A stretch of 64,000 nucleotides of DNA from the IMG/VR virus record IMGVR_UViG_3300045256_000094, one strand, 5' to 3'. Within the stretch, counting starts at the first letter, position 1. Each line of letters begins with the position of its first letter. Shown piece after piece: positions 1-32,153 of this stretch. The DNA comes from a virus. A program made the position numbers and the translations under genes. The notes beneath the pieces are model-generated. The model saw only the letters and a list, made by a program, of their open reading frames with translations. It was not told where the DNA came from and did no database searches.

Positions 1-444
1 CCGGTCCTGCTCCTTGAAGTCCTGAATGAAGTTCCTTTCGGTAAGAAACTCAGGGTTGAAGCAAATCAGCAGGTGGCGGTAGGTGTTGTTTAACCTCTCG
101 ACCGTGCCGGGGATGACGGTGGACTTCAGGACGATGACCGGCCGGATGCCCAGGTACTCCGCACTCTCGTTCAGGTGCGTCATCACGTCGTCCACGCACA
201 CCACATCGCACTGCCCCTGGTTATTCATCGGCGTCGGAACGCAAACAAACACCGGGCCGTCCACGGACTTCAGGATGTGGGTATAGGGACTCACGGCCGG
301 GGGCGGAACAGGAACCTCCTTACCCCCGCAGACGGCAGCCCAACCCTTGATCTTGTCGTAGGACAAAATGTCGAAACAATGCTTCATCCCCTCGAACACG
401 GCCGAGCCGACGAAGCCCCGACCCACGATCCCGATAGTCTTCAT
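1..444 (-). CDS. UDP-glucose/GDP-mannose 6-dehydrogenase, N-terminal NAD-binding part (gene continues past window edge)
   Basis: Minus-strand translation starting at ATG 442-444 gives MKTIGIVGRGFVGSAV...VFVCVPTP...VVLKSTVIPGT...NPEFLTE. These are the Rossmann GxGxxG and UDPGDH-family motifs. The ORF runs off the 5' edge of the window. Confidence 0.7.
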   Translation of the reverse strand, partial: MKTIGIVGRGFVGSAVFEGMKHCFDILSYDKIKGWAAVCGGKEVPVPPPAVSPYTHILKSVDGPVFVCVPTPMNNQGQCDVVCVDDVMTHLNESAEYLGIRPVIVLKSTVIPGTVERLNNTYRHLLICFNPEFLTERNFIQDFKEQDR

Positions 445-450
445 ATTACC

Positions 451-1341
451 TCACAATTGGTTGCAACACGCCAAGAAGGTGTTCTTCATCAACATGGCAA
501 CCGTGACCGGACCCACCCCTCCGGGCACAGGGGTGTAAGCCTGAACGATCCCGTAGATGCCGGGATGGCAGTCCCCGACGACCTTGCCGTCTACTCGGTT
601 AATGCCCACGTCAATGACAACACTGTCCTTATGTACCATCTCCCTCTTCAAGAAATTCGGCTGCCCCACGGCGACCACGATGAAATCGGAAGAAAGACAG
701 CACTGCTCCAACAGTTCAGGCGGCGTCTTGTCGTGGCACATGCTCACCGTGGCGTTCCCGAACAGGTCGTCCCGGACCATCATCGAGAACAGAGGCTTGC
801 CCACCACGTCGCTGCGGTTGATGAGCGTGACCTTCTTCCCCTCCAGCTTGTAGCCGTAGTGGTGGAGGATCGCCTGTACCGCCGCCGGGGTGCAGGGCTG
901 GTAGCGGGGTCTGCCTTGCGTTAGTAAACCCACGTTGGTCGGGCTGAACACGTCCACGTCCTTGAGCGGGTTCAGGGCGTCGAACACGTTACTCTTGTAG
1001 ATGCCAGTCGGCAGCGGGAGTTGAACAAGGAGGCCGTGGATGGCCTTGTCCTTGTTCAACCAGTCGATCATGCCGAGCAGGTGGGACTCCGGGTCGGAGA
1101 ACTTCTCCACGCCGTTCTCGAACGGCTGGTACAGGACGCTGTTGATCCCGACCTTCTCGCACGCCTCTCGCTTCTTGTTGACGTAGATGCGACTGGCCGG
1201 GTCGTTGGTGGTCAGGATAACGGCAAGGGCGGGACGGATTAGGAACCCTTGTTGGTTCTTCATCCTGATCCCGTCCTTGACTTCCTTCAGAATCGCCTCT
1301 GCTACAACATCACCCTTGAGCAACACGTTTCTGACTCCCAT
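451..1341 (-). CDS. folD: bifunctional methylenetetrahydrofolate dehydrogenase/cyclohydrolase FolD
   Basis: 296 aa; LLVQLPLP, VTLINRSDVVGKP and PGGVGPVTVAMLMKNT motifs are typical of FolD. Confidence 0.88.
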   Translation of the reverse strand: MGVRNVLLKGDVVAEAILKEVKDGIRMKNQQGFLIRPALAVILTTNDPASRIYVNKKREACEKVGINSVLYQPFENGVEKFSDPESHLLGMIDWLNKDKAIHGLLVQLPLPTGIYKSNVFDALNPLKDVDVFSPTNVGLLTQGRPRYQPCTPAAVQAILHHYGYKLEGKKVTLINRSDVVGKPLFSMMVRDDLFGNATVSMCHDKTPPELLEQCCLSSDFIVVAVGQPNFLKREMVHKDSVVIDVGINRVDGKVVGDCHPGIYGIVQAYTPVPGGVGPVTVAMLMKNTFLACCNQL

Positions 1342-1846
1342 AGTTGAAGTCCACCACGAACCCGCTCTGGATGTCGCCCCAGGTCAGGTGGTGGATCGAG
1401 TTGAAGCCTTCCTCGAACGTCGGGTACTTCCACTGGCTGTTGTGGTGTTTCGCCACCATCAGCCAGTAATCATAGTCATGTCCACGGGCATCGGCACCGG
1501 CCCGACGTGCGGCGTGAACCTCCGGCCCTTCGTTGGTGAAGACGATGGCCTCGCACTGAACGTCGAAGCTCTTTGCCAGGGCGATCCACCGCTGGCGTCC
1601 CTGGACGCTACAGTTGAGGCCACGGTCCACCAACACCTTTCGACCCATAAGTAGGGCCGAGGCGATGACGTGGTTTTCGACGCTCTTGTACAGGGTCTTC
1701 AACCCGGTATCATAGAGGGTGTAGTCGTCGGCGTGCAGCATGTTGACGATGGCGTCGTCGTTCATGCAGATGATGCCCTTTTGGGCTGCGTTGCGGGCGT
1801 AGGTGGATTTACCCGATGCGATCATCCCTACTAAGACTGGGATCAT
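1310..1846 (-). CDS. P-loop kinase (polynucleotide-kinase-like kinase domain)
   Basis: Walker A motif GMIASGKST near the N-terminus; roughly 180-aa kinase-only protein. The 5' end overlaps the FolD start, so the real start is probably the internal Met (M10 or M17). Confidence 0.55.
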   Translation of the reverse strand: MIPVLVGMIASGKSTYARNAAQKGIICMNDDAIVNMLHADDYTLYDTGLKTLYKSVENHVIASALLMGRKVLVDRGLNCSVQGRQRWIALAKSFDVQCEAIVFTNEGPEVHAARRAGADARGHDYDYWLMVAKHHNSQWKYPTFEEGFNSIHHLTWGDIQSGFVVDFNYGSQKRVAQG

Positions 1847-1914
1847 ACAAGCCCTCCAATGGCTCGAAAGCACGGCTTCCCTGCCGTGTTGTTAATCTAT
1901 CCGAAAGCGGCTTC

Positions 1915-2214
1915 TTAGTCAATCTTGGGAACGTAAATCTTGGACACGCCCTGCTCGTTGACCAGCTTGTAGAAGTCCTCGTAGGTGAGTTCTTCGTCAA
2001 TCTGGGCCATCACGAACGCCGCCTCGTCCTCGGTGAAGTCGCCCACCAGTTGAGAGGGGTCAACGTAGTGACGCCGCTTGGCGAGCCAGAACGCACTGAG
2101 CAATCGGTGGAACGGGCTGGAGTCGAAGCAACGCTCGCAGTGTTGACAGGTGGTGATGCCGTCTTTGAGGGGGTGATTCAGTTTATGCCCGCAGTATGCG
2201 CACATGATTAACAT
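1915..2214 (-). CDS. small zinc-ribbon protein
   Basis: MLIMCAYCGHKLNHPLKDGITTCQHCERCF carries a CxxC...CxxC zinc-ribbon motif. The ORF-track extension upstream of 2214 is the antisense of the ParB gene and was trimmed. Confidence 0.45.
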   Translation of the reverse strand: MLIMCAYCGHKLNHPLKDGITTCQHCERCFDSSPFHRLLSAFWLAKRRHYVDPSQLVGDFTEDEAAFVMAQIDEELTYEDFYKLVNEQGVSKIYVPKID

Positions 2215-2282
2215 GAATCTATGTAAACAAAAAGGCCGGGGTTTTACAACCCCGGCCCAAAGACTCTGGATTAGTCCGTCCG

Positions 2283-3593
2283 TCAGTCCGCCAGTTCCTC
2301 GTCCCCGGCCTCCACGTCGGTCAGGGGTTCCAGCGGCTTTTCCTCGTAGCCGTCGGGCAGTTCCCACTCGAAGCGGGCGACCATGATCTGCCGGGCCACA
2401 CGGCAGGGGTCGTACACGCCGTTCAGGATGGCGACGGCGGTAGCCCGCATCACTTCCAGAACGTCGTTCGGGATCAGGTTCTTCGTCACGGGGTCTTGCT
2501 TGCCCTTCTCGATCCACCCCTTGACCAGTTCCTTGTAGAACTGCTCGATCTGCCCCTTTGTGAGACAGGTCGCCTTCTTCGGGCTGACGCCCCGCTTCAG
2601 CCCGCCCGCCGTCAGGTGGCCCTGCCGGATGGTTCCGGCCTCCTTCACCACCCGGTCCTTCTTGGCCTTCGCCTTCTTGGCCCGCCCCTCGGCCGTCTCC
2701 TTCTTCTTGGCGAGCCGCTTGGCCGCAGCCTCGTCGCCCTGCTCCTCGGCGATGTTCACCATCGTCGCCGTCATGTCGGCCTCGTCCGACGCCTGTGCGA
2801 TCTCGTCGTCGAGCCGTTCGACCGCCTCAGCCCGCTCGGCCTTCTCTTGCTCAACGGCCCCCTCGTAAGCCGCCTGCCGGTCCTCCTTCTTGTAGGACAA
2901 CAGCTTGACGGCGACGTGACGGGTGAGTTGCCCACTCACCAACTTGGCGAAGGCGTCGGGCGGGAGTTCTTCCCGGAAGTTCCCGGTCTGGGACACCCAG
3001 GTCACGTTGGTGGACAGGAGCTTGACGATCTCCTGCTGGGTCAGGCCACGGAGGGTCAGCCGTTCGACCAGTTCGATCTCTTCCTTGACGGTCAACGACT
3101 GGTGTTCGTTGTTCTCAAGGAAGTTGATCCTCACCGCCTCTTCGTCGGTGATGTTGTACAGGACGTTGCAGGTGACGAACTGGTAGAGTTCCCGTGCGGG
3201 AACCTCGATCTTCCGCTTGCGGTCGAAGCACAGCGGGTTGTTCTTGTACAGCAGGTCGATTGACCGGAATCGCCGCTCACCGGCGATCAGTTGAACCCTG
3301 GTGACGGGGGACTCGTCGTCCGACGGGTTCTCAGTGAAGGCCCGGACGACGATGGGTTGGATCAGACCTTCCAGGCGGATGCTCTCGTAGAGAGCGTGCA
3401 TCTTCTCCTGGGTGAAGCTGTCCATGCTCCGGCAGTTGAAGAACAGAACGTCCTTCTCTCGCCCCGGCTCCGGCCGTTCCACGATCTCGATGGCTTGGAG
3501 TGGCACAAGCCGGAACTGGCCGTCCCCCTCGATTCGGATGCCCCCGAGCGGGTCATCCTTCGTCTTGCCGTTCTTTTTGGTTGCCGTGGTCAT
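2283..3593 (-). CDS. ParB-like nuclease-domain protein
   Basis: The ParB/Srx N-terminal motif IVVRAF...RVQLIAGERRFRS is present. The C-terminal region is rich in Lys/Ala/Glu. Confidence 0.8.
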   Translation of the reverse strand: MTTATKKNGKTKDDPLGGIRIEGDGQFRLVPLQAIEIVERPEPGREKDVLFFNCRSMDSFTQEKMHALYESIRLEGLIQPIVVRAFTENPSDDESPVTRVQLIAGERRFRSIDLLYKNNPLCFDRKRKIEVPARELYQFVTCNVLYNITDEEAVRINFLENNEHQSLTVKEEIELVERLTLRGLTQQEIVKLLSTNVTWVSQTGNFREELPPDAFAKLVSGQLTRHVAVKLLSYKKEDRQAAYEGAVEQEKAERAEAVERLDDEIAQASDEADMTATMVNIAEEQGDEAAAKRLAKKKETAEGRAKKAKAKKDRVVKEAGTIRQGHLTAGGLKRGVSPKKATCLTKGQIEQFYKELVKGWIEKGKQDPVTKNLIPNDVLEVMRATAVAILNGVYDPCRVARQIMVARFEWELPDGYEEKPLEPLTDVEAGDEELAD

Positions 3594-3713
3594 AGATTTT
3601 CCCTTTCCTTGTGACCGGCGTGCCTACGGTGATCGGGTCTGTCGGGGCATAATGATCTGGACCGCACCAGTCCAGGCTTCATCTGCCAGTTTTGCTGGTC
3701 TTCTCCTTTCTTG

Positions 3714-4328
3714 TTACAGAGCGTAAGTCGGCCCCGGTTTACGACAACGCACTTGCCATCCGACTTCGTACTCCGTGCTGCCGTAGTTGTCAAGCACGGA
3801 ATCCTTGCGCCGTAGCATCAGTCCCTCGATTGCATCGAGCTTGATGAAATCGTTGAACCGAGCCACGAAATCCGAGTCCCACGTCTCAGCCATCCACACA
3901 TGGGGGCTGACGGTCAGAGCGATTGCCGGATCGCTCTTAGACGTGGGACTACCGCACAAGTCGTTCAAAAGTTTCAGACGTGTTTCCTGTTTTGCTCCGA
4001 AAAGGTACTTGCCCGTTTGGAGTACGTCGAATAGGACAACGGTGTGGGGAAAATGTTCGTGGACTAGCTCGCAGTCCAGCCAGTAAGCCTTGCCGTCCTC
4101 GAACTTTAGGGCGGAAAGTTCACGCCGAAGCTCGGCGGACATCTTGTACCGCTCGTAGGGCTTGCCGTAGCGGGAAAAGATGGACACCTGACCATCGGGT
4201 GAACGGAAGATCACCGAACGGTCGCCATTGAACTTCCGCTGCACCAGCCACTTCCCCGTTCGCTCCAGGCGGGGGAGTTCCGATGAGGGAACTTTCCCTT
4301 GCGGGCGAGGAGGGAAGATTGGCTTCAT
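3714..4328 (-). CDS. minimal ATP-dependent polynucleotide ligase (nucleotidyltransferase domain)
   Basis: Motif I is LVQRKFNGDR (K-x-[DN]-G-x-R). The downstream EGLMLRRKDS resembles motif IV/V. The likely start is the internal MKPIFPP; the ORF is open to 4415. Confidence 0.55.
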   Translation of the reverse strand: MKPIFPPRPQGKVPSSELPRLERTGKWLVQRKFNGDRSVIFRSPDGQVSIFSRYGKPYERYKMSAELRRELSALKFEDGKAYWLDCELVHEHFPHTVVLFDVLQTGKYLFGAKQETRLKLLNDLCGSPTSKSDPAIALTVSPHVWMAETWDSDFVARFNDFIKLDAIEGLMLRRKDSVLDNYGSTEYEVGWQVRCRKPGPTYAL

Positions 4329-4451
4329 GGGCGGATTGCTCCGTGGATGGAACCAACTTACCCCAGAAACGGGAAAAGTAAAGCGCAAAGTAGGAAAAAA
4401 AGAAAGACCCGGCAAAACCGGGTCTTTCCGTAGTTTTACTTCGACCTGAAT

Positions 4452-6848: not shown

Positions 6849-6883
6849 AGTTACGCTCAGGAAGCAGAATAATATAGCAAGGA

Positions 6884-7807: not shown

Positions 7808-8259
7808 AAGTCGCTGGCGGAACGCTCCTCGAAGTCGCCCGTGTTCTCGAAGTATCGGACCGGGCACCTGAGCCTGGGGTAATCCACCCCACGATACCAT
7901 TTGTCAAACATCGGCCGGTGCTGATCGGGGTCACTAACCTCGACTCGGTACTGGCCGATGATCTTTTCATACGGGGCGTACAGGACGTACACCGTCGTCT
8001 CGGCCGGGAAGTACAGCCCGGTCGGGTCGCTCAGGTGCCACCCATCCAGGGTGAAGTCGGCGTTGCAGAACCAACTGACATGGGCCATCGCTTCACTGAT
8101 GGAAAGCCCGAACGTCTCGATCTGGTGCCAGGGGAACAGGGCGTCGAAGCAGACGTAGCGGTTCGGCAACAGCTTGGCGAACGTGGTCTTGCCCACACAC
8201 GACATCCCGAACACTATGATACGCTCAGGATGATTACCATTGTAACTGTTAATTTTCAT
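7786..8259 (-). CDS. P-loop NTPase/kinase-like protein
   Basis: Walker A motif IIVFGMSCVGKTT. Confidence 0.5.
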   Translation of the reverse strand: MKINSYNGNHPERIIVFGMSCVGKTTFAKLLPNRYVCFDALFPWHQIETFGLSISEAMAHVSWFCNADFTLDGWHLSDPTGLYFPAETTVYVLYAPYEKIIGQYRVEVSDPDQHRPMFDKWYRGVDYPRLRCPVRYFENTGDFEERSASDFYAFLRT

Positions 8260-26085: not shown

Positions 26086-27512
26086 CAGTAAATCTCCACG
26101 TCGTATAGCTCGGTGAACTTGCGGGCGTCATCCAGGTCGTTAAGGATCGGCTGTCCCCGGATGTTCAGGCTCGTGTTCAACACCATCGGGCAGCCGGTCA
26201 ATCGGTAGAACTCTTCGAGAACAGCGTTGAACCGTGGGTTGTTCTTCTCGTTCACCGTCTGCACCCTGGACGTATTGTCATAGTGACAGATGGCGGGAAA
26301 CTCTGCCGGGTAGCGGCACTTGCCCACATACTGCATGTACGGGCTGACGGGGACCGGCATCTCGAAGTAGTCGTGGACGAAACGTTCCAGAACGGCCGGG
26401 GCGAACGGGCGGAATTGGTGGCGACGTTTGACTTGGTTCACCATCACCTTGTTCTCGATCTTTCTCGGGTCTGCCAGCAGTGAGCGGTTCCCCAACGCCC
26501 GTGGCCCGAACTCCGCTGGTCCGTTCGCAATACCCACCGCTTTGCCCTGGGCCAGCGTCCTAGCCACGGCTTCCACGTCGAGTTCCCGGTCGATACTCTT
26601 GCCCAGGTAAGGACCGTCCCATTGGACGTGCCGGTCGAGCGCACACCCGACGGCCGACCCGGCGTCCCCTGGATTGGGGAATATCCACATGTTCTCAAAC
26701 AGCGGGGCGATCTTCGCATTCAGTACACAGTTCAAAGCCACGCCGCCGACGTACACGAGGTTCGACGAGTAGCGACTGGCCTGCCGCATGACCTTCAGTA
26801 CCACCCGTTCAGTAACGGCCTGGACGCTGGCGGCGATGTCCACCGGGTCGGCTTCCGGGAGGTAGTCGCCCACGCCCCGCCACACGTCCCGCTTCAACTC
26901 AAACAGCGGCGCACTGTCCACGAAGAAGTCGTCGTAGATTTGCTCGGCGTAGATCGGCTTCCCGAAGGCAGCCATCCCCATCATGATGTACTCTTCCTCG
27001 TTCGGCTTGAGGCCGCACCGCTTCGTGAACGCCGAATAGAACAGGCCGATGGACGACGGGTAGTTGATTTGCTGCACCCGATCAAGTCGCTCCAGATATC
27101 CGCAGTGGATACCGAACGTGGCCCACTCGCCGATGGCGTCGATGGTCACGACGACTGCGTGCTGGAACGGCGATGTGTAATAACCCGTCTTGGCGTGGGA
27201 GTCGTGGTGGTCGCCATACTCCACGCCTCTGATCCCGAACCGCTTCAGATAGGTGGATGGCAACTCTTTCATCAGTGCCTTCCACTGACCGAGCCGCAAC
27301 TGACGCCCCTTTTTCTTCCAGGGGTTCTCGTAGAACACCACCCGATCCGGTTTTCCGAACGCACGGGCGTCGTCCACCAGTTCTTGACACAGGTGCTTAT
27401 CTTGCTTGATCTTGGTATACCGCTCGGAGGACGAGGCGTATACCAACTTGTTGTCCTGAACCACCGCCAGCGAGGCGTCGTGGTTCATGGCGGTGATACC
27501 CCAGGTAATCAT
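26085..27512 (-). CDS. NodU/CmcH-family carbamoyltransferase
   Basis: MITWGITAMNHDASLAVV...; roughly 475 aa. Both ends overlap neighbouring genes by ATGA. Confidence 0.82.
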   Translation of the reverse strand: MITWGITAMNHDASLAVVQDNKLVYASSSERYTKIKQDKHLCQELVDDARAFGKPDRVVFYENPWKKKGRQLRLGQWKALMKELPSTYLKRFGIRGVEYGDHHDSHAKTGYYTSPFQHAVVVTIDAIGEWATFGIHCGYLERLDRVQQINYPSSIGLFYSAFTKRCGLKPNEEEYIMMGMAAFGKPIYAEQIYDDFFVDSAPLFELKRDVWRGVGDYLPEADPVDIAASVQAVTERVVLKVMRQASRYSSNLVYVGGVALNCVLNAKIAPLFENMWIFPNPGDAGSAVGCALDRHVQWDGPYLGKSIDRELDVEAVARTLAQGKAVGIANGPAEFGPRALGNRSLLADPRKIENKVMVNQVKRRHQFRPFAPAVLERFVHDYFEMPVPVSPYMQYVGKCRYPAEFPAICHYDNTSRVQTVNEKNNPRFNAVLEEFYRLTGCPMVLNTSLNIRGQPILNDLDDARKFTELYDVEIY

Positions 27513-28231
27513 ACGCTCCTCTGCTTGTAAGCTTCCCACCCGTAATGCCTGTCGGCACGATTAACACCGATGAAGTGGATGATATCGGTGAAGCCGTCCA
27601 GGTCGGTTTTCAACTCATACATGTCCCGGACTTCCAAGACGACGTGCCGTGGGTATTTCAAAAGAGCGGCGATGACCAACGCCTGCTCCTCTCCGTAGGT
27701 GAACTTCGCCACCGGGTTGTCGTAGATGATGTCCACGATCTCCTTCTGGAAGTCGAACCCCGGCGGCATCCCGATGAGGCCACTGTTATAAGCCCCTTCA
27801 CTAATGAGATGGGCGTAGGTGCCGTAATACCGTACCCCGGTTCGGGCGAACATCGTGCAGTCGCCGTCGAGGAAGGGTTTGATCTGGTCGATGCTGTGGA
27901 TCAACACGTCATTGTCGCAGACGATCTCGTGCTTGTCCGGGGCCAACCTCGGCGGGCAAATCTTCCACAAGCTCCCGCCCGTCTTGTGCCGGTTCCTCTG
28001 GTCCGTCCCGGCGTCGAGGTAGGGCCGGAGGAGATGGGTGGGTTCCTGTCGCACCAGGGGCACATCCAACTTCTGCAATTGTTCAACTTGTAACTCAGTT
28101 AGGTTGTTGTAGCAGACGGCGTACTCCACGGGATATCCATCGAACGCCTTCTTCGCCAACTTGACTGAGCGAGCCAGTGTCTCCAGTCCGGCCACGGTCG
28201 TATTGCCACAAGTCCAACGGAAGAGAACCAT
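27509..28231 (-). CDS. putative glycosyltransferase, FRWTCG / CYNN / CDNDVLIH family (paralog C)
   Basis: MVLFRWTCGN...AVCYNNLTELQVEQL...VCDNDVLIH. Confidence 0.5.
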   Translation of the reverse strand: MVLFRWTCGNTTVAGLETLARSVKLAKKAFDGYPVEYAVCYNNLTELQVEQLQKLDVPLVRQEPTHLLRPYLDAGTDQRNRHKTGGSLWKICPPRLAPDKHEIVCDNDVLIHSIDQIKPFLDGDCTMFARTGVRYYGTYAHLISEGAYNSGLIGMPPGFDFQKEIVDIIYDNPVAKFTYGEEQALVIAALLKYPRHVVLEVRDMYELKTDLDGFTDIIHFIGVNRADRHYGWEAYKQRSV

Positions 28232-29156
28232 GATTATCCCCAAATTCAACTGCCAACAAGTGCGTGCGATGCCGTTACACAACTCCCACGGGTGGTTGGA
28301 CGCAGTGAACGCAATCCAGGCCAAACTGAACAACCCTAACGGAGTGTTGTTCTACGACATGCTGGATTTTCATTTCATAGAAAAGCGGACGCCCATCCAA
28401 ACCCAATGGACGGGCTTCTTCCACAGCGTACCAAAATACCCGGAAAACGTCCACAACATTGCCCGGCTCCACGCCGGGAGGCTGTACATGCTGTCGGCCA
28501 TTCTGGAACAAGAGTGGGTCAGAGAGAGCCTGCCATACTGCGTCGGCCTCTTCACCCTGTCGCCCGCACTCAGCCGATTCATCGTGGAGAAGACGGGCAT
28601 CCCGGTCAGCACCATCCCGTATGCCGTCAGTGAATACGACTGCCAGTTCGACATCAAAGCCTACGACGAAAACCCACGAGTCCTACACGCCGGTCAGTAC
28701 CAGAGGAACTACCAGCCGTTCTTCGACCTGAAGGTGAAGCAAAAGAAGACGTTCATTAAGATAGACTTCGACAAGGAGGCCGGTTTCTACACCAACACGG
28801 AGGGAACGGAGTTCCTAGAACTCCAGTCGGCCGAACAATTCATCAAGATGCAAAGCTCGTCGGTGGTGTTCATGAACCACTACAACGAGTTCGCCTGCAC
28901 GGTCATGTTGCAGTGCATCAAGCTCAGGACGCCGGTCATGGTCAACCCCACCGAGACGAACCGATACTATCTCGGCGAGGACTACCCCTTGTTCTACTCG
29001 TCCGTCGAAGAGGCTAACGCCAAACTGGCCGACCACGATCTCATCGTGAAGGCCCACGAGTACCTGAAAGGTCTTTCTTATACTACCGACCGAATGGTGG
29101 ACGAGATCGCCAACTCAAAAGTGTACAAGAGCATTGGCACTCGCTTCGTCTTTTAA
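28230..29156 (+). CDS. putative GT-B glycosyltransferase
   Basis: The C-terminal region SVVFMNHYNEFACTVMLQCIKLRTPVMVNPTE resembles the GT4 C-terminal part. Its start overlaps the divergent gene's start in a CATG. Confidence 0.4.
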   Translation: MIIPKFNCQQVRAMPLHNSHGWLDAVNAIQAKLNNPNGVLFYDMLDFHFIEKRTPIQTQWTGFFHSVPKYPENVHNIARLHAGRLYMLSAILEQEWVRESLPYCVGLFTLSPALSRFIVEKTGIPVSTIPYAVSEYDCQFDIKAYDENPRVLHAGQYQRNYQPFFDLKVKQKKTFIKIDFDKEAGFYTNTEGTEFLELQSAEQFIKMQSSSVVFMNHYNEFACTVMLQCIKLRTPVMVNPTETNRYYLGEDYPLFYSSVEEANAKLADHDLIVKAHEYLKGLSYTTDRMVDEIANSKVYKSIGTRFVF

Positions 29157-30086
29157 CTCCCATGACCACCGGCTGCCGTTCGTTCTGAACCAGCCGACGG
29201 TGCGCATCAACCCGTCGTGAATATCGACGGTGGGTTGCCAGCCGGTACACTGCTTCAACTTGGCGTTATCACAAACGAGTCGGTCGATCTCACTGCGGCG
29301 GAACCGTGCGGGGTCGATCTGTAGGAACGGCTCCACGTCCATGATCTCGGCGATGGTCTTGTACAGGTACTCAATGCTGTAGCTTACGCCCGAGCCGATG
29401 TTGTACGCCTCACCGGGTTTGCCGTGTTCCATCAGTGCGATGATGGCACGGGCCGTGTCGTGGACGAAGGTGAAGTCACGCTCGGCGTGGATGTTCCCCA
29501 GCTTCAGGATCGGGCCGTCCCGCAACTGCTTGATGATCTCTGCGATGACGTAAGGGGCACTCTCCCGTGGGCCGTAGGCGTTGAACAACCTAGCCACGAC
29601 GACCGGCGTACCGTGTTCCCGGTACGCACTGATGCAAAGCCCGTCCCCAGCGATCTTTGTGGTGGCGTAGGTGTTGCAGAACGACAGAGGCGAAGTCTCG
29701 GACAAGCTGACGTTCGGGTTGTTACCGTATACCTCTGCGGTGGAGATGTGGACGATCCGCTTCACGTTACGACACGCCTTCAGGACGTTGTACGCCCCGA
29801 CCACGTTGTTGTTGATGAACCGTTTCGGGACGACGTAGGAGTTGGGGATGAACGTGTCCCCGGTAAAGTTGATGACCGAATCAGGATTAACCTCATCAAC
29901 ACACTTGAGTAAGTTCCATTCGTCCAGCACGTCGAACGGGTAGACGGTGACTTCTCCCGGAAGGTTAGACCTTCGGCCGTTGGACAGGTTGTCGTAAACG
30001 TAGACAGCGTGCCCTTCCCGAAGCAGTTCAATAGCGGTGGCGGACCCGATGAAACCGGCACCGCCGCAGATTAACACTTTAGCCAT
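29115..30086 (-). CDS. NAD-dependent epimerase/dehydratase (GalE/UXS-like)
   Basis: MAKVLICGGAGFIGSA... and the YxxxK block YATTKIAGD. Confidence 0.8.
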   Translation of the reverse strand: MAKVLICGGAGFIGSATAIELLREGHAVYVYDNLSNGRRSNLPGEVTVYPFDVLDEWNLLKCVDEVNPDSVINFTGDTFIPNSYVVPKRFINNNVVGAYNVLKACRNVKRIVHISTAEVYGNNPNVSLSETSPLSFCNTYATTKIAGDGLCISAYREHGTPVVVARLFNAYGPRESAPYVIAEIIKQLRDGPILKLGNIHAERDFTFVHDTARAIIALMEHGKPGEAYNIGSGVSYSIEYLYKTIAEIMDVEPFLQIDPARFRRSEIDRLVCDNAKLKQCTGWQPTVDIHDGLMRTVGWFRTNGSRWSWELKDEASANALVHF

Positions 30087-31185
30087 TCAATAGTCTCGCA
30101 GAGTGTATTAACGCCATTTGTATTACGTCGTCCATGTCGAGGTACTTGTAAGTTCCCAGCCTCCCTCCGAACGTAACATCAGTCGTCTCCCGCATCAGTT
30201 CTTGGTACTGACCGAACATCTTTTCATTGGTCTGGTCGTTGATCGGATAGAACGGTTCGTTCTTCCCGTCGAACTCCTGGGGGTATTCATATGTAACAAT
30301 CGTGTCCGGGATTCGGTGGCCTTCGTACTGAATGTGCTTGTGTTCAATGATGCGGGTGTACGGCACGTCCTTCGACGTGTAATTCACCTGGGCCGTCCCC
30401 TGGAAGTCGCAATTCTGGTGGGTGTGGGACTCGTGCCGCAGGGAGCGGTAATCCAGGCGACCGAATCGGTAGTCGAAGAAGGCGTCCACGCAGCCCGAGT
30501 AGATCAGGTGCTTAGCGTGGTGTCGCCACCAGCCCGCCTTGTGGGCGAAGAAGTCTGCGTTCAGTTCAACGTCGATACCGTCCAGCATAACCTCGAACAG
30601 TTCAGTGTACCCTTTGAGCGGCACCCCCTGAAATTGCGACGAGCCGTGGTAGGTATCGTCCATCGTCGTCCGAATGGGAATACGCTTGGCGATGCTGGCC
30701 GGTAGCTCCCTGGGGTGACGGCCCCATTGCTTGATCGTGTAGCCCTCGTAGAAAGTCTGGTACAGTTGGAACCCCACCTGCGAGATCACGAACTGCTCGA
30801 AATTGGCCGGGTTCGGAACGTCCTTCCGAAGTTTCTTAATCAACTCCTCGGCCTCGGCCGGGGTCTTCACCCCGTACATCTGGTGCAGCGTGAGCAGGTT
30901 GATGGGGAACGAGTACAATTTGCCTTCGTAGTTCACCTTTACCCGTGGCAGGCTGGTGTAGAAGTCCACGAAGTTGTTGACGTACCGCCACACGTTCATC
31001 TTGTTCGTGTTGAAGTAGTGCGGCCCGTAGCGGTGGACGTGGATGCCGCCCACGTTCTCAGTGTAGCAGTTGCCTCCGATGTGATCCCGGCGTTCCAGAA
31101 TCTTCACCTTCTTCCCACGGGCGGCAAGCTCGTAAGCCATGACCGTCCCGTAGAGGCCGCTCCCAACAATCAGATAATCTAGCAT
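30079..31185 (-). CDS. glf: UDP-galactopyranose mutase
   Basis: MLDYLIVGSGLYGTVMAYELAARGKKVKILERRDHIGGNCYTE; 368 aa. Confidence 0.88.
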   Translation of the reverse strand: MLDYLIVGSGLYGTVMAYELAARGKKVKILERRDHIGGNCYTENVGGIHVHRYGPHYFNTNKMNVWRYVNNFVDFYTSLPRVKVNYEGKLYSFPINLLTLHQMYGVKTPAEAEELIKKLRKDVPNPANFEQFVISQVGFQLYQTFYEGYTIKQWGRHPRELPASIAKRIPIRTTMDDTYHGSSQFQGVPLKGYTELFEVMLDGIDVELNADFFAHKAGWWRHHAKHLIYSGCVDAFFDYRFGRLDYRSLRHESHTHQNCDFQGTAQVNYTSKDVPYTRIIEHKHIQYEGHRIPDTIVTYEYPQEFDGKNEPFYPINDQTNEKMFGQYQELMRETTDVTFGGRLGTYKYLDMDDVIQMALIHSARLLNG

Positions 31186-32153
31186 TACGCCTTTTCTTCA
31201 CTGAGAATCCACGCCAGTGTTTCCTCAAGTGTGTATTGATGCCGCCAACCGGCGGCGGACAGCTTGCTGCCGTCCAACATGTACCGCCGGTCGTACCCTT
31301 TGCGGGCCGACTCCGACGGGATCAACTTGTAGTTCAACTCTCTGCCGAGCAGCTTGGCGATGGCCTGTGCCATTTGCAAGTTGTCAATCTCCGTCTTGCC
31401 GCACACGTTGAAGCGGTTCGGCCGGGGTGCCACCCCGTCGGCAGCCTGGACCGGCAGCCCGGAGACGAAGTGGATCGCACTCGCAACGTCTCGGGCGTCA
31501 ACGTAACATCTCGACCCGATCCGCCCGGCCTCGCCGTAGATGGGCATCTCCTTCCCGGACCGGACGTAGTTGATGATCTTCGGCACGAACTTCTCCGGGT
31601 CTTGCCTCGGCCCGATGATGTTCATGGCGTTCAGGATGACCAGCGGCATGCCGTAACTTCGCCAATAAGCGATAGCCATCGCCTCCTGGCACGCCTTGCT
31701 GGCGGCGTAAGGGTTGCTGGGCACGATGGACGACCACTCGGCGTGGCCGGACGTGGTGGCCTCCCCGTACACTTCGTCCGTGCTGAATTGTAAGAACAAC
31801 TTCGGCGGGTGCTTCCGGGCGAACTCCAGCATGTTGAGGCCGACTTCGAAGTTGTTCCTCAATGCGGCCACAGGGTCGGAGATGGACCGCTCCACCGCCG
31901 AGTCGGAGGCCAGATGGATGATGAAGTCGATCTCCCCGCCCTTTAATAACTTGTCCTGGGTCATCGGGCAGATCGGGACGGACAGGTCGTGGAAAACTAA
32001 GTCGATGTCCTGCCGGACACGGGCTAAACTGCCCCGGTGACGGAAGGAGTCGAGGCCAATAATTGACCAATCGGTCTTTTCCTTAAGATAATCGAGGACT
32101 AGACCGCCTAAGAAACCGCCCACGCCCGTCAGCAAAACCCTGTTCATTTTCAC
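31185..32153 (-). CDS. dTDP-glucose 4,6-dehydratase-like (RmlB family)
   Basis: MNRVLLTGVGGFLGG...YAASKACQEAMAIAYWRSYG. Shares a TAATG overlap with glf. Confidence 0.82.
   Translation of the reverse strand: MKMNRVLLTGVGGFLGGLVLDYLKEKTDWSIIGLDSFRHRGSLARVRQDIDLVFHDLSVPICPMTQDKLLKGGEIDFIIHLASDSAVERSISDPVAALRNNFEVGLNMLEFARKHPPKLFLQFSTDEVYGEATTSGHAEWSSIVPSNPYAASKACQEAMAIAYWRSYGMPLVILNAMNIIGPRQDPEKFVPKIINYVRSGKEMPIYGEAGRIGSRCYVDARDVASAIHFVSGLPVQAADGVAPRPNRFNVCGKTEIDNLQMAQAIAKLLGRELNYKLIPSESARKGYDRRYMLDGSKLSAAGWRHQYTLEETLAWILSEEKA

What the first reader, a model, noticed from the sequence alone, without database searches (positions are those of the whole stretch)
1..32153. About 32-kb autonomous glycan biosynthesis, decoration and transfer cluster with triplicated gene families
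This cluster combines nucleotide-sugar enzymes, namely UDP-Glc dehydrogenase, two RmlB-like 4,6-dehydratases, a GalE-like epimerase and UDP-galactopyranose mutase (galactofuranose). It adds tailoring enzymes: a DegT aminotransferase, a NodU/CmcH carbamoyltransferase, an SGNH hydrolase or acyltransferase, two sulfotransferase-like proteins, and three paralogous SAM methyltransferases that share the FLDYGCGEG…DVLDH…FVDYVL motifs. FolD could supply a formyl donor. There are at least ten glycosyltransferase-like genes, including a triplicated FRWTxG–CYNN–CDNDxLL family. Many genes are coupled by overlapping ATGA/TAATG stop–start codons. Such self-contained glycosylation machinery is well known in giant eukaryotic viruses and is unusual in phages. 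It could glycosylate virion proteins or remodel the host surface.
Basis: partly seen in the sequence, partly recalled or inferred. Interest (0 to 1): 0.7.

Follow-up and report, generated by a model that had tools for sequence, protein, structure and literature searches.

The report
Huge-phage sugar-coat gene island
A fragment of an uncultured giant bacteriophage carries an unusually large island of sugar-making, sugar-decorating and sugar-transferring genes; islands of this kind are already known in jumbo phages and giant viruses, and whether this one coats the virus particle or remodels the infected cell remains untested.

Summary
The gene content is largely as described. Tools support about 20 of 39 ORFs in 1-32153 as glycan-related: UGM, an RmlB-like 4,6-dehydratase, a second SDR, a DegT aminotransferase, a carbamoyltransferase, three paralogous methyltransferases, a probable sulfotransferase, an NDP-sugar dehydrogenase fragment, and 8 supported plus 2 probable glycosyltransferases.

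Corrections:
- There are two SDR genes, not three.
- The SGNH protein and the second sulfotransferase are unverified.
- The region is not one autonomous cluster. FolD, a kinase, ParB, a ligase and RlaP are backbone genes, syntenic with the 595-kb phage LR756511.1, whose glycan island is only about 5 kb.
- There is no sugar-1-P nucleotidyltransferase, flippase, polymerase or priming transferase, and no membrane protein.

It is phage DNA, not a host O-antigen locus. Relatives lie on 235-693 kb contigs, and several ORFs start with a T4-type capsid-targeting sequence.

An 11-kb core (4770-15932) keeps its gene order in seven examined relatives. The adjoining arm varies between them. Two core GT families (modelled GT8-like and GT31-like folds) have no Pfam or PHROG model and are near-absent from cellular genomes.

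Best guess (0.45): cytoplasmic glycosylation of a phage protein. Main rival (0.3): host-envelope remodelling. I rate it a new variant of a known kind.

The parts
1..450 (-). N-terminal fragment of a nucleotide-sugar (UDP-Glc/GDP-Man type) dehydrogenase. The gene runs off the left edge of the window.
   Evidence: PF03721, E=4.5e-15. TIGR03026 subfamily hit below cut-off because the sequence is a fragment. No homologue at this position in LR756511.1.
451..4415 (-). Backbone block, not part of the glycan machinery: FolD (451-1341), AAA_33 P-loop kinase (1310-1873), Zn-ribbon protein (about 1915-2250), ParB_N protein (2283-3593), short ATP-dependent ligase (3714-4328/4415).
   Evidence: Pfam. The same order is found in LR756511.1 at 29-64% amino-acid identity. 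ParB and the Zn-ribbon protein also flank the core in L006/L007, and ParB in L008.
4770..5564 (-). Core gene 1: GT2 glycosyltransferase.
   Evidence: PF00535, 58 bits. Syntenic homologues at 48-94% identity in L005-L011.
5534..6070 (-). Core gene 2: conserved 178-aa protein of unknown function.
   Evidence: Conserved in every relative at 36-85% identity. No Pfam or PHROG hit. Only weak vWA-like hits in PDB sequences, E about 0.04.
6060..6905 (-). Core gene 3: GT-A glycosyltransferase with a GT31/Fringe-like (inverting-type) fold and a DYD motif. New sequence family.
6884..7807 (+). Core gene 4: SAM methyltransferase paralogue 1 (FLDYGCGEG ... DVIDH ... FVDYVL).
   Evidence: PF13489, 52 bits. 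Paralogy shown. LR756511.1 homologue at 36%, also ending in FVDYVLM.
7786..8259 (-). Core gene 5: small P-loop (Walker A) protein with unknown substrate.
   Evidence: Conserved in all relatives. Only sub-threshold AAA hits.
8747..9856 (-). Core gene 6: GT2-like GT-A, paralogue of 19262-20014. The likely start is at 9658.
   Evidence: Weak PF00535 hit. blastp 27% identity to 19262-20014, and hhalign probability 98.5%.
9668..10836 (+). Two tandem ORFs (9668-10417 and 10417-10836) with T4-type capsid-targeting-sequence-like N-termini (MLTFKEFMMAE, MTTFREFINE). They are embedded in the glycan core. Their link to the glycan is unknown.
   Evidence: ORFs at the same position in L005-L011 share only this N-terminus.
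10833..11633 (-). Core gene 7: GT2-like protein (marginal) with a DAD motif.
   Evidence: PF00535, 22.5 bits against a cut-off of 23.3. Homologues at 59-89% identity in all relatives.
11630..12643 (-). Core gene 8: SAM methyltransferase paralogue 2.
   Evidence: PF13489, 59 bits. Paralogy shown.
12598..13449 (-). Core gene 9: 'FRWT' family member 1. GT-A glycosyltransferase with a GT8-like (retaining-type) fold and a DND motif. New sequence family.
13371..14420 (+). Core gene 10: SAM methyltransferase paralogue 3.
   Evidence: PF13489, 53 bits. Paralogy shown.
14413..15201 (-). Core gene 11: DUF707 protein with a DDD motif. Probable GT-A-type transferase.
   Evidence: PF05212, 33 bits against a cut-off of 24. 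Conserved in L005, L008, L010 and L011. That DUF707 belongs to the GT-A clan is from memory and was not tested.
15198..15932 (-). Core gene 12: probable sulfotransferase.
   Evidence: Sulfotransfer_4, E=0.004, below cut-off. The family profile's best PDB hits are sulfotransferases: 4gox E=0.0024, then CurM ST and SULT1C3. A GTGRCGT loop is visible. Bona fide sulfotransferases sit in the homologous island of LR756511.1.
15947..17680 (+). Backbone gene RlaP (RNA-repair nucleotidyltransferase). It is split by an insertion of about 813 nt that carries a NUMOD3 homing endonuclease (16626-17225). It separates the core from the variable arm and is not glycan-related.
17733..18554 (+). Arm: DUF6492 protein with a DAD motif. 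Probable transferase.
   Evidence: PF20102, 101 bits. Absent from the close relative L005 and from the phage records.
18525..19256 (-). Arm: unknown protein with a DDDD motif. GT-like by eye only.
   Evidence: No Pfam or PHROG hit.
19262..20014 (+). Arm: GT2/GT7-type glycosyltransferase.
   Evidence: PF02709, 33 bits against a cut-off of 23.
19948..20943 (+). Arm: unknown protein with a DAD motif. The likely start is at 20011. GT-like by eye only.
   Evidence: No Pfam or PHROG hit. Homologue at 86% in L005.
20936..21358 (-). RF-1 (GGQ) domain-only protein. Not glycan-related.
   Evidence: PF00472, 90 bits. Matches prfA model positions 204-341.
21793..22512 (+). Arm: 'FRWT' GT8-like family member 2.
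   Evidence: blastp and hhalign against members 1 and 3. Shares the invariant motifs.
22624..23424 (+). Unverified.
   Evidence: No hit in Pfam, NCBIfam, PHROGs or PDB sequences. Only 3 homologues in 5.8 billion proteins.
23408..24469 (+). Arm: DegT-type PLP sugar aminotransferase. Closest solved relatives are C4 aminotransferases (perosamine synthase).
   Evidence: PF01041, 296 bits. PDB 3bn1, E=7e-47. Below every NCBIfam equivalog cut-off.
24456..25265 (+). Arm: member of a widespread uncharacterised family. Sulfotransferase-like motifs by eye only.
   Evidence: 1562 clusters at 50% identity. No Pfam hit in any of 40 members. No PDB hit.
25189..26085 (-). Arm: unknown 298-aa protein.
   Evidence: No hit.
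26085..27539 (-). Arm: NodU/CmcH-type O-carbamoyltransferase.
   Evidence: PF16861 with 177 bits and PF02543 with 141 bits. 45% identity to a protein of the jumbo Ralstonia phage RsoM2USA, and 28-32% to cyanophage proteins.
27509..28333 (-). Arm: 'FRWT' GT8-like family member 3.
28161..29156 (+). Arm: unknown protein. GT-B-like C-terminal motif by eye only.
   Evidence: No hit.
29115..30086 (-). Arm: extended SDR (STAEVYG motif). Could be a 4-ketoreductase, a 4-epimerase or a decarboxylase; not resolved.
   Evidence: PF16363/PF01370. Below all NCBIfam cut-offs. Closest PDB sequences are the Rmd reductase 2pk3, RmlB, GalE, Pal and UXS.
30079..31185 (-). Arm: UDP-galactopyranose mutase, which makes UDP-galactofuranose.
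   Evidence: TIGR00031, 354 bits against a cut-off of 304. PF03275, 240 bits.
31185..32153 (-). Arm: RmlB-like NDP-glucose 4,6-dehydratase (TDEVYG, YxxxK).
   Evidence: TIGR01181 is the best hit at 187 bits, below its cut-off. PF01370/PF16363.

Best explanation
What it is.
- The window is part of a huge tailed phage with T4-type head assembly, infecting a bacterium.
- At a conserved genomic locus, between the backbone genes ligase and RlaP and continuing beyond RlaP, the phage carries a greatly expanded glycan island.
- The island has two parts. An 11-kb core (4770-15932) keeps its gene order in seven examined relatives. A 14.5-kb arm (17733-32153) differs between relatives.

How it most likely works (inferred).
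- Host UDP/dTDP-hexose pools are converted by phage enzymes into unusual donors.
- UGM makes UDP-galactofuranose.
- The RmlB-like dehydratase makes an NDP-4-keto-6-deoxyhexose. DegT then aminates it to a 4-amino-4,6-dideoxyhexose, or the second SDR reduces or epimerises it.
- The dehydrogenase makes a uronic acid.
- About 10-13 soluble GT-A glycosyltransferases (GT2-like, GT31-like, GT8-like) then assemble a heteroglycan in the cytoplasm, without any lipid carrier or export step.
- The acceptor is a phage-encoded protein, most plausibly a virion surface protein.
- Three O-methyltransferases, a carbamoyltransferase and one or two sulfotransferases cap the glycan.
- The conserved core would build the invariant inner glycan on a conserved phage acceptor. 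The variable arm would add serotype-like outer decorations.

Shown versus inferred. The enzyme families, folds, synteny, phage origin and lack of membrane or export components are shown. The sugar identities, the acceptor and the biological role are inferred.
For: Phage, not host:
- Relatives lie on IMG/VR viral contigs of 177 and 459 kb and on metagenome contigs of 235-693 kb.
- The backbone is syntenic with GenBank 'uncultured phage' LR756511.1 of 595 kb.
- Four ORFs start with a T4 IPI/IPIII-like capsid-targeting sequence.
- Shine-Dalgarno-like motifs precede 45 of 80 starts, against a 22% background.
- The window also holds tRNAs, truncated translation genes and homing endonucleases.

Cytoplasmic and carrier-free:
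- None of the 39 ORFs in 1-32153 is a predicted membrane protein.
- No Pfam hit to a priming transferase, flippase, polymerase or ABC transporter was found.

A phage-specific, conserved acceptor is the simplest reading:
- Twelve core genes keep their order at 35-65% identity in distant relatives.
- The two modelled core GT families have no Pfam or PHROG model. One was found once in 185,579 cellular species genomes, on a 5.7-kb MAG contig.
- The arm next to the core is swapped between relatives. It holds DegT/Sulfotransfer_4/Hexapep/WbqC in L011, carbamoyltransferase/sulfatase in L010, and Polysacc_deac/PhyH/TOD1/radical SAM in L008.

Hints of a link to the virion:
- Genes for capsid-targeted proteins sit inside the core in every relative.
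- The small homologous island of LR756511.1 encodes a protein with two discoidin (F5/8 type C) domains among its GT, methyltransferase and sulfotransferase genes.

Precedent:
- Phage-encoded glycosylation of mycobacteriophage capsid and tail proteins is cited in PMC12619734.
- Chlorovirus and mimivirus virion glycans are made by soluble viral GTs and methyltransferases (established knowledge, from memory).
Against: - No acceptor has been identified, and no structural gene (capsid, tail, fibre) lies in the window.
- GT-A enzymes without membrane spans routinely act on undecaprenyl-linked intermediates at the membrane face, so the absence of membrane proteins does not exclude a lipid-linked host acceptor.
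- The published reading of comparable jumbo-phage clusters is host-surface modification.
- The expression timing is unknown. No T4 late-promoter motif was found.
- The sugar identities rest on sub-threshold family matches.
- Three putative GTs, the SGNH protein and the second sulfotransferase are unverified.
- The genome-collection scan used only two peptide patterns, so the family's absence from cellular genomes is not exhaustive.
Confidence: 0.45

Rival explanations
1. Host-envelope remodelling. The phage enzymes feed modified NDP-sugars and extra glycosyltransferase, methyl, carbamoyl and sulfo steps into the host's own lipid-linked LPS, capsule or EPS pathway during a long infection. The cell surface changes as a result. 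This would block superinfection by rival phages and stop progeny from adsorbing to infected cells or debris. Export would rely on host Wzx/Wzy or ABC machinery.
For: - This is the published interpretation of sugar clusters in jumbo phages. It rests on the same polymorphism between related phages seen here (PMC7824862).
- The enzyme types (UGM, RmlB-like, DegT, carbamoyl-, methyl- and sulfotransferases) are typical of O-antigen and capsule loci.
- The same window encodes exported or envelope proteins, including a PEP-CTERM-like protein, a BaxI_1 protein and an SMR transporter. The phage therefore does act on the envelope.
- Soluble GT-A enzymes commonly work on undecaprenyl-linked acceptors.
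Against: - No priming transferase, flippase, polymerase, ligase or transporter is present, and no protein in the island has a membrane span.
- The core is strictly conserved across relatives at 35-65% identity and across very different GC contents (57% here, 42% in LR756511.1). Host surface glycans are the most variable structures of bacteria, so a conserved core argues against a host-specific acceptor.
- Core GT families are essentially absent from cellular genomes, so they were not recently borrowed from host loci.
Confidence: 0.3
2. DNA hypermodification. The glycosyltransferases build glycans on hydroxymethylated bases of the phage genome, as in T-even phages and the systems of Pyle et al. 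2024, to evade restriction. The neighbouring capsid-targeted proteins would be injected anti-restriction factors, like T4 IPI*.
For: - The phage has T4-type capsid-targeting sequences. In T4 such internal proteins protect glucosylated DNA (PMC3012670).
- Phage GTs that add diverse glycans to DNA are documented (cited).
- FolD, ParB, a ligase and a kinase are neighbours.
Against: - No dCMP/dUMP hydroxymethylase or other base-modification gene was found in the window.
- FolD, ParB, the ligase and the kinase are backbone genes that stay put whatever the island's size.
- Ten or more GTs, plus UGM, an aminotransferase and methyl-, carbamoyl- and sulfotransferases, far exceed any known DNA glycan (from memory).
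- The DNA was assembled many times from ordinary shotgun data.
Confidence: 0.07
3. Ordinary host chromosomal LPS/O-antigen DNA, or a bacterial contig misread as phage.
For: - The sugar enzymes have bacterial-type sequences, and the genes have SD-like ribosome-binding sites.
- One relative of the FRWT family sits in a contig binned to a Neisseriaceae MAG.
Against: - No host core genes are present, and no Wzx/Wzy/Wzz/PGT genes.
- There are 16 strand switches in 34 kb, with convergent genes overlapping and divergent starts 1-41 nt apart. O-antigen operons are co-directional.
- IMG/VR relatives and synteny with LR756511.1 point to a phage.
- T4-type capsid-targeting sequences are present.
- Homing endonucleases, tRNAs and truncated translation factors are present.
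- The MAG hit is a 5.7-kb contig carrying only two FRWT genes and a methyltransferase.
Confidence: 0.03
4. Biosynthesis of a free, decorated oligosaccharide or glycosylated small molecule, such as a Nod-factor-like signal or an aminoglycoside-like secondary metabolite, rather than a glycoconjugate on protein or envelope.
For: - The decoration set (NodU-type carbamoyltransferase, N/O-methyltransferases, sulfotransferase, and a NodB-like deacetylase in L008) resembles Nod-factor tailoring.
- Iyer et al. propose a sugar-derived secondary metabolite for a second cyanophage cluster that contains carbamoyltransferases.
Against: - No chitin-synthase-type backbone enzyme, aglycone pathway, acyl-carrier or exporter was found.
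- Ten or more GTs imply a large glycan rather than a tailored small molecule.
Confidence: 0.05

Closest known systems
Sugar-production/modification ('capsular polysaccharide modification') clusters of jumbo phages, with the 15-gene cluster of T4-like cyanophage P-SSM2 as prototype (Iyer et al. 2021, PMC7824862)
   Same: - It sits in a jumbo or huge T4-related phage.
- It has paralogous NAD-dependent epimerase/dehydratases.
- It has several paralogous GTs from different families.
- It includes carbamoyltransferases related to the cyanophage ones at 28-32% identity.
- Gene content is polymorphic between related phages.
   Different: - It is roughly twice as large: about 20 supported plus 8 unknown genes over about 26 kb.
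- It lacks the sugar kinases and nucleotidyltransferases of the 'complete' cyanophage clusters.
- It contains a strictly syntenic 12-gene core.
- Most of its GT families (FRWT, the 6060 family, DUF6492, DUF707) have no or almost no match in 50,697 phage records.
- It adds three methyltransferases and sulfotransferase(s).
Virion glycosylation systems of giant eukaryotic viruses (chlorovirus PBCV-1 capsid glycans; Mimivirus/Megavirinae fibril glycans)
   Same: - It uses virus-encoded NDP-sugar enzymes, including a 4,6-dehydratase and a C4 aminotransferase.
- It has many soluble GT-A enzymes and sugar methyltransferases, and no lipid-carrier machinery.
- Its gene sets are clade-specific.
   Different: - The host is bacterial (SD motifs, T4-type capsid-targeting sequences).
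- There is no detectable sequence homology of the GTs, only a shared fold (about 10-15% identity).
- Attachment of the glycan to the virion is unproven here.
Mycobacteriophage capsid/tail-tube glycosylation (Freeman et al. 2023, as cited in PMC12619734)
   Same: Phage-encoded soluble GTs modify phage structural proteins in the bacterial cytoplasm. This is the only experimentally shown precedent for the mechanism proposed here.
   Different: - Those systems comprise a few genes, while this one has dozens.
- No NDP-sugar pathway, carbamoyl or sulfate chemistry is known there (from memory).
- There is no homology evidence, and the paper itself could not be read.
Homologous mini-island of the published huge phage LR756511.1 (595 kb)
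   Same: - It occupies the same locus between the ligase and RlaP.
- It has an orthologous GT31-like GT (42% identity) and an FVDYVL-type methyltransferase (36%).
- It carries sulfotransferases.
   Different: - It spans only about 5.5 kb and six genes.
- It carries an RGP (GT75) protein and a protein with two discoidin domains.
- It lacks the FRWT family, GT2, UGM, DegT and carbamoyltransferase genes.
Bacterial Wzx/Wzy- or ABC-dependent O-antigen/capsule loci
   Same: It combines NDP-sugar modifying enzymes (UGM, RmlB-like, DegT) with GTs and tailoring transferases.
   Different: - It has no priming transferase, flippase, polymerase, chain-length regulator or transporter.
- Its genes lie on both strands with extreme overlap.
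- It sits in a phage genome.

Membership tests
Bacterial O-antigen/capsule biosynthesis locus | Initiating phosphoglycosyltransferase (WbaP/WecA type, polytopic membrane protein) | tested here: not met
   No Pfam hit of this kind and no multi-span protein in 1-32153.
Bacterial O-antigen/capsule biosynthesis locus | Export/polymerisation machinery (Wzx+Wzy+Wzz or an ABC transporter) | tested here: not met
   None found; all proteins are predicted soluble.
Bacterial O-antigen/capsule biosynthesis locus | Chromosomal location among host core genes, with co-directional operon organisation | tested here: not met
   Phage context. There are 16 strand switches in 34 kb.
Jumbo-phage sugar production/modification cluster (Iyer et al. 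2021) | Located in a jumbo (>200 kb) phage genome | tested here: met
   Relatives lie on 235-693 kb contigs and on IMG/VR contigs. The backbone is syntenic with the 595-kb LR756511.1. The window's own source contig is 169 kb and incomplete.
Jumbo-phage sugar production/modification cluster (Iyer et al. 2021) | 1-4 paralogous NAD-dependent epimerase/dehydratases plus several GTs of distinct families | tested here: met
   Two SDRs are present. GTs are of GT2-like, GT7C-like, GT31-like-fold and GT8-like-fold types.
Jumbo-phage sugar production/modification cluster (Iyer et al. 2021) | 'Complete' clusters also carry sugar kinases and sugar-1-P nucleotidyltransferases | tested here: not met
   No PfkB or NTP_transferase hit in any ORF scanned. 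The left edge of the cluster is cut by the window.
Jumbo-phage sugar production/modification cluster (Iyer et al. 2021) | Gene content polymorphic between related phages | tested here: met
   The arm differs among the window, L005, L008, L010 and L011.
Viral virion-glycosylation system (chlorovirus/mimivirus/mycobacteriophage type) | Soluble virus-encoded GTs acting without a lipid carrier | tested here: inconclusive
   All GTs are predicted soluble and no carrier machinery is present. Solubility alone does not exclude lipid-linked acceptors.
Viral virion-glycosylation system (chlorovirus/mimivirus/mycobacteriophage type) | Glycan covalently attached to virion structural proteins | not testable with these tools
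   Needs virions and glycoproteomics.
CAZy GT8 / retaining GT-A (for the FRWT family) | GT-A Rossmann-like fold with a DxD motif, closest to GT8-type structures | tested here: met
CAZy GT8 / retaining GT-A (for the FRWT family) | Sequence membership (Pfam Glyco_transf_8 or a related model) | tested here: not met
   No Pfam, PHROG or PDB-sequence hit. Identity to the structural neighbours is 9-12%.
GT31/Fringe-like inverting GT-A (for 6060-6905) | Fold closest to GT31/GT14 structures, with a DxD motif | tested here: met
GT31/Fringe-like inverting GT-A (for 6060-6905) | Sequence membership (Pfam Galactosyl_T/Fringe) | tested here: not met
   No Pfam or PHROG hit. None of the 120 listed homologues has a Pfam domain.
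UDP-galactopyranose mutase | Score above the NCBIfam equivalog cut-off, with FAD-binding N-terminus and GLF domain | tested here: met
   TIGR00031 scores 354 against a cut-off of 303.75. PF03275 and PF13450 also hit.
T4-type capsid-targeting-sequence (CTS) internal proteins | N-terminal decapeptide like MKTYQEFIAE/MKTFKEF, with aromatic residues at positions 4 and 7, a hydrophobic residue at 8 and Glu at 10 | tested here: met
   10417 starts MTTFREFINE, and 9668 starts MLTFKEFMMAE. 41997(-) starts MGSFKEFFEQQE, and 46527 starts MYSSFQEFVQIRE. T4 sequences were read. Residue roles are from PMC9026906.
T4-type capsid-targeting-sequence (CTS) internal proteins | Packaging into the prohead and cleavage by a gp21-type prohead protease | not testable with these tools
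   No protease or capsid gene lies in the window. Needs the full genome and virion proteomics.
Phage DNA-glycosylation system | Pyrimidine hydroxymethylase (thymidylate-synthase family) supplying the base to be glycosylated | tested here: not met
   None among the ORFs scanned in the window. The rest of the genome is unseen.

The most novel reading that the evidence does not exclude
A widespread, so far undescribed clade of huge phages builds a complex heteroglycan entirely in the bacterial cytoplasm and without lipid carriers. Contigs of the clade reach about 700 kb.

The glycan would be methylated, carbamoylated and sulfated, and would contain galactofuranose and amino-deoxy sugars. It would be attached to the phage's own virion proteins.

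A conserved 12-gene core would build the inner glycan and a swappable arm would add outer decorations. This would be a bacteriophage counterpart of the Mimivirus fibril or chlorovirus capsid glycans, with serotype-like diversification. It would use GT families found almost nowhere else. The capsid-targeted proteins encoded inside the core may be functionally tied to it.
Probability: 0.35. Interest if true: 0.8.

Novelty: new variant of a known kind. Interest (0 to 1): 0.55.

Why it matters
If the glycan decorates the virion, complex virus-encoded glycan coats would extend from giant eukaryotic viruses and a few mycobacteriophages to environmental huge phages. That would bear on adsorption, on protection from grazers, defences and decoys, and on particle stability.

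The conserved-core-plus-variable-arm layout gives a natural system for studying diversifying selection on a viral glycan.

In practical terms:
- The island contains at least two GT-A sequence families with confident structural models but no Pfam, PHROG or CAZy-type sequence assignment. It also contains a methyltransferase family with a conserved C-terminal FVDYVL motif. These are candidates for new glycosyltransferase and sugar-methyltransferase specificities.
- The T4-type capsid-targeting motif gives a simple sequence handle. It can place these huge phages in the T4-like assembly lineage and list their packaged (ejected) proteins.

If the island instead remodels the host envelope, it is the largest such auxiliary gene set seen in a phage, though still of a known kind.

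Tried and rejected
- **Nucleotide search.** Megablast of 1-25000 against 50,697 phage records found nothing.
- **PHROGs.** Twenty proteins gave almost nothing.
- **Profile-profile comparison.** Local hhalign among all unknown cluster proteins recovered only the paralogies already seen by BLAST. The profiles were too shallow to link the unknowns to GT families.
- **afdb50 fold search.** This library was unavailable.
- **Leftward extension.** An exact look-up of FolD found nothing on record. The FolD scan of IMG/VR also found nothing. What lies left of the truncated dehydrogenase is therefore unknown. The long source contig was never returned by look-ups.
- **Flanking 490-aa protein.** It has no relatives in IMG/VR.
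- **Group I intron in the split RlaP gene.** Rfam gave no credible hit.
- **T4 late promoter.** TATAAATA is absent, so expression timing could not be inferred.
- **RsoM2USA as a relative.** Rejected. Only the carbamoyltransferase and PTH2 match, with no synteny.
- **Arn-like UDP-Ara4N/formyl pathway (Ugd + SDR + DegT + FolD).** Considered but not adopted. There is no formyltransferase, and FolD is a backbone gene.
- **Freeman et al. 2023.** The paper could not be read.

Full report
**1. What is in the sequence.**

The window is 57% GC throughout, and coding frames are clear from GC3. I called 39 ORFs in 1-32153 and scanned them with Pfam, NCBIfam and PHROGs.

Firmly assigned:
- A nucleotide-sugar dehydrogenase fragment at 1-450(-), cut by the window edge.
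- FolD at 451-1341.
- A GT2 at 4770-5564.
- Three Methyltransf_23 proteins at 6884-7807, 11630-12643 and 13371-14420.
- DUF707 at 14413-15201.
- DUF6492 at 17733-18554.
- A GT2/Glyco_transf_7C protein at 19262-20014.
- DegT at 23408-24469.
- A carbamoyltransferase at 26085-27539.
- Two extended SDRs at 29115-30086 and 31185-32153.
- UGM at 30079-31185, the only enzyme that passes an NCBIfam equivalog cut-off (354 against 304 bits).

The right-hand SDR carries the TDEVYG signature, and its best match is dTDP-glucose 4,6-dehydratase. The other SDR (STAEVYG) is ambiguous. Its closest solved sequences are a GDP-4-keto-6-deoxymannose reductase, RmlB, GalE, Pal and UXS. DegT is closest to perosamine synthase, a C4 aminotransferase.

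All-against-all BLAST confirms the paralogous sets:
- Methyltransferases ×3, at 31-37% identity.
- The 'FRWT' family ×3, at 28-33%.
- 8747-9658 and 19262-20014, at 27% (hhalign probability 98.5%).
- The two SDRs, at 25%.

R8/T10/G12, C43/N45 and D119-N120-D121 are invariant in 20 FRWT sequences.

Gene junctions show many 1-nt and 4-nt overlaps. They also show 16 strand switches, convergent genes overlapping by 8-77 nt, and divergent starts only 1-41 nt apart.

**2. Corrections to the observation.**

- There are two SDR genes, not three.
- The 'SGNH' protein (22624-23424) has no supporting hit anywhere and only three homologues in 5.8 billion proteins.
- 15198-15932 is a probable sulfotransferase. 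The evidence is a weak Sulfotransfer_4 hit, and a family profile whose best PDB matches are sulfotransferases.
- 24456-25265 belongs to a widespread family without a Pfam model (1562 clusters). It is sulfotransferase-like only by motifs read by eye.
- Eleven ORFs inside the claimed cluster are unrelated to glycans. They are FolD, an AAA_33 kinase, a Zn-ribbon protein, a ParB_N protein, a short ATP-dependent ligase, two ORFs with capsid-targeting N-termini, a split RlaP nucleotidyltransferase with a NUMOD3 homing endonuclease, and an RF-1 (GGQ) domain protein.
- No sugar-1-P nucleotidyltransferase, sugar kinase or formyltransferase was found.
- No priming transferase, flippase, polymerase or transporter was found.
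- A hydropathy scan finds no membrane protein among the 39 ORFs, while several occur in 32-64 kb.

**3. The unknown GT families.**

This gives eight GTs with tool support: 4770, 6060, 8747, 10833 (marginal), 19262 and FRWT ×3. DUF707 and DUF6492 add two probable ones. Three more (18525, 20011, 28233) rest only on motifs.

**4. What kind of genome this is.**

Five lines of evidence say it is a huge tailed phage of a bacterium:
- **Relatives.** The FRWT protein retrieves three IMG/VR viral contigs of 27, 177 and 459 kb. The FRWT and 6060 families each have more than 220 metagenomic homologues, all unnamed, on contigs up to 652-693 kb.
- **Synteny with a published phage.** GenBank 'uncultured phage' LR756511.1 (595 kb, 42% GC) has the same backbone order. 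That order is FolD (51%), kinase (64%), Zn-ribbon protein, ParB (29%), ligase (43%), a glycan mini-island, then an intact RlaP. Further along lie HNH (47%), PTH2 (60%) and NADAR.
- **Capsid-targeting sequences.** Four window ORFs begin with a sequence like the T4 capsid-targeting sequence.
  - I read T4 IPIII/IPII (MKTYQEFIAE) and IPI (MKTFKEF...) from NC_000866.
  - In the window, 10417 starts MTTFREFINE and 9668 starts MLTFKEFMMAE.
  - 41997(-) starts MGSFKEFFEQQE, and 46527 starts MYSSFQEFVQIRE.
  - The match includes positions 4 and 7 (targeting) and 8 and 10 (processing), as defined experimentally (PMC9026906).
- **Translation signals.** SD-like motifs precede 45 of 80 starts, against a 22% background.
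- **Other genes.** The rest of the window holds typical huge-phage cargo:
  - two tRNAs and a GluRS catalytic-domain-only protein;
  - YqeY, a CCA-adding-type enzyme and PTH2;
  - NADAR and DUF4326;
  - HNH and NUMOD3 endonucleases.

A pattern scan of 185,579 bacterial and archaeal species genomes with the FRWT alignment found one hit. It is a 5.7-kb contig of a MAG that carries two FRWT genes and the methyltransferase, most likely a mis-binned phage fragment.

**5. Anatomy across relatives.**

In L005 to L011 the segment corresponding to 4770-15932 keeps its gene order. The amino-acid identity is 35-65%, or 80-94% in the close relative L005. This segment contains GT2, the 178-aa protein, the GT31-like GT, a methyltransferase, the P-loop protein and a GT2-like GT. 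It continues with a variable ORF, another GT2-like GT, a methyltransferase, FRWT, a methyltransferase, DUF707 and the sulfotransferase.

The neighbouring arm is different in each genome:
- The window has DUF6492, GTs, FRWT ×2, DegT, carbamoyltransferase, SDR, UGM and RmlB.
- L008 has Gly_transf_sug, Polysacc_deac_1, PhyH, Methyltransf_24, TOD1_MUCI70 and radical SAM.
- L010 has carbamoyltransferase and sulfatase.
- L011 has DegT, Sulfotransfer_4, Hexapep, a methyltransferase and WbqC.

L005 lacks the whole block 15956-19256.

LR756511.1 has only about 5.5 kb at this locus. It holds the GT31-like GT, the FVDYVL methyltransferase, two bona fide sulfotransferases, an RGP (GT75) protein and a 456-aa protein with two discoidin domains.

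So FolD, the kinase, ParB, the ligase and RlaP are backbone genes. The glycan genes form an island that has expanded at a fixed locus, with a conserved core and a swappable arm.

In every relative, the ORF between the two GT2-like core genes, on the opposite strand, is not alignable in sequence. It nevertheless starts with the same capsid-targeting-like motif.

**6. Mechanism.**

Shown:
- the enzyme inventory;
- the folds of two new GT families;
- the lack of membrane or export components;
- the phage origin;
- the conserved-core and variable-arm architecture.

Inferred:
- Host NDP-hexoses are converted to UDP-Galf, an NDP-4-keto-6-deoxyhexose and its aminated and/or reduced derivatives, and a uronic acid.
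- Ten to thirteen soluble GTs assemble a heteroglycan.
- This glycan is O-methylated, carbamoylated and probably sulfated.

I favour a phage-encoded protein acceptor, i.e. virion glycosylation, at 0.45. The reasons:
- A strictly conserved core made of clade-specific GT families fits a conserved phage acceptor better than it fits hypervariable host glycans.
- Nothing for lipid-linked assembly or export is present.
- Genes for virion-associated proteins sit within the island. These are the CTS-tagged proteins here and the discoidin-domain protein in LR756511.1.

The main rival, at 0.3, is the published reading of jumbo-phage sugar clusters: remodelling of host surface polysaccharide to exclude rival phages (PMC7824862). 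It is not excluded, because soluble GT-A enzymes can act on undecaprenyl-linked intermediates and the host could provide export.

DNA glycosylation (0.07), a free glycoside (0.05) and host DNA (0.03) are minor rivals.

**7. Comparison with what is known, and novelty.**

Large sugar clusters are documented in jumbo phages:
- P-SSM2 has 15 genes, with 1-4 epimerase/dehydratase paralogues and GTs of at least 8 families, and the clusters are polymorphic between relatives.
- GT and UDP-GlcA-decarboxylase folds are among the ten commonest structure clusters in huge phages.
- UGM is in 90 phage records, and carbamoyltransferases are in 142.

The kind is therefore known.

New here:
- The scale, at about 26 kb and at least 20 supported genes.
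- The 12-gene syntenic core, whose two searched families each have more than 220 homologues in an undescribed huge-phage clade.
- GT families absent from Pfam, PHROGs and almost all cellular and phage records.
- The triple methyltransferase plus sulfotransferase chemistry.

No paper describing this island was found.

Verdict: a new variant of a known kind, with interest 0.55.

Noticed in passing
window 9668-10417(+), 10417-10836(+), 41557-41997(-), 46527-47402(+); weaker at 32234-33706(+); L005 13443(-), L006 13320(-), L007 13314(-), L008 12660-13337(-), L010/L011 13465-14067(-): These ORFs begin with M-x-x-F-[KRQ]-[EQK]-F-..-E, closely matching the T4 internal-protein capsid-targeting sequence (IPIII/IPII MKTYQEFIAE, IPI MKTFKEF). 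The rest of each protein is unrelated and partly low-complexity. One such gene sits at a fixed position inside the conserved glycan core in every relative examined. This suggests a T4-like prohead core and protease, and a set of fast-evolving packaged or ejected proteins.
   Followed up: partly
window 15947-17680(+): The RlaP-like RNA-repair nucleotidyltransferase gene is split. Residues 2-184 map to 15947-16468 and residues 200-312 to 17327-17665, in the same frame. Between them lies an insertion of about 813 nt carrying a NUMOD3 homing endonuclease (16626-17225) in another frame, with GC3 of 0.47 against about 0.77 elsewhere. The gene is intact (317 aa) in LR756511.1. Rfam finds no group I intron. 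Related endonuclease genes occur at L010/L011 20491-20797.
   Followed up: partly
window 20936-21358(-); L005 3576-5616: A 140-aa protein consists only of the GGQ/RF-1 domain of a class-I release factor. In the close relative L005 the homologue aligns only from residue 62, and it lies next to a group II intron reverse transcriptase/maturase ORF (RVT_1, GIIM, HNH). The gene may be intron-interrupted there.
   Followed up: no
window 37702-38598(-): A secreted Pro/Gly/Cys-rich protein ends in a PEP-CTERM-like sorting motif (PF07589, 18.8 bits, just under the 20.7 cut-off). This hints that the host has an exosortase system and that the phage plants a protein in the host envelope.
   Followed up: partly
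window 33740-64000: This half holds translation and RNA-repair genes:
- a GluRS catalytic-core-only/GluQRS-like protein (34273-35151);
- YqeY (42006-42452);
- a CCA-adding/poly(A)-polymerase-type enzyme (42449-43696);
- PTH2 (52748-53119);
- tRNA-Arg(CCT) at 45285-45356;
- a 92-nt tRNA-Ile(TAT) at 54064-54155.

It also holds other cargo:
- NADAR (47457-47984);
- DUF4326 (61168-61554);
- BaxI_1 (36197-37000);
- an SMR transporter (55153-55467);
- an S24-like peptidase (53116-53415);
- HNH (35228-35860);
- a C39-like peptidase (33740-34240).

Neither tRNA reached the Rfam gathering score.
   Followed up: partly
window 1-34300: Gene packing is extreme and bidirectional. Divergent start codons lie 1-41 nt apart (for example 28231/28233, 19256/19262, 9658/9668). 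Convergent ORFs overlap by 8-77 nt. Promoters and terminators must therefore lie inside coding sequence.
   Followed up: no
window 9657, 19301, 39519, 50174, 52142: The octamer ATAGATAA occurs 5 times against 0.27 expected. Four of the five sites lie 3-70 nt upstream of a same-strand start codon, including the CTS-tagged gene at 9668. It may be a -10-like promoter element.
   Followed up: partly
window 47977-48840(-): A further 287-aa protein with a DTD motif has a weak profile link to 20011-20943 (hhalign probability 19%). It could be another glycosyltransferase-like gene, 16 kb outside the island.
   Followed up: no
L019 (LR756511.1 185000-234000) 20350-24117: The published 595-kb phage carries a mini-island at the homologous locus. 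It holds two bona fide sulfotransferases, an RGP (GT75) protein and a 456-aa Ser/Thr/Gly-rich protein with two F5/8 type C (discoidin) domains. That protein is a candidate glycan-binding or glycan-bearing virion protein.
   Followed up: partly
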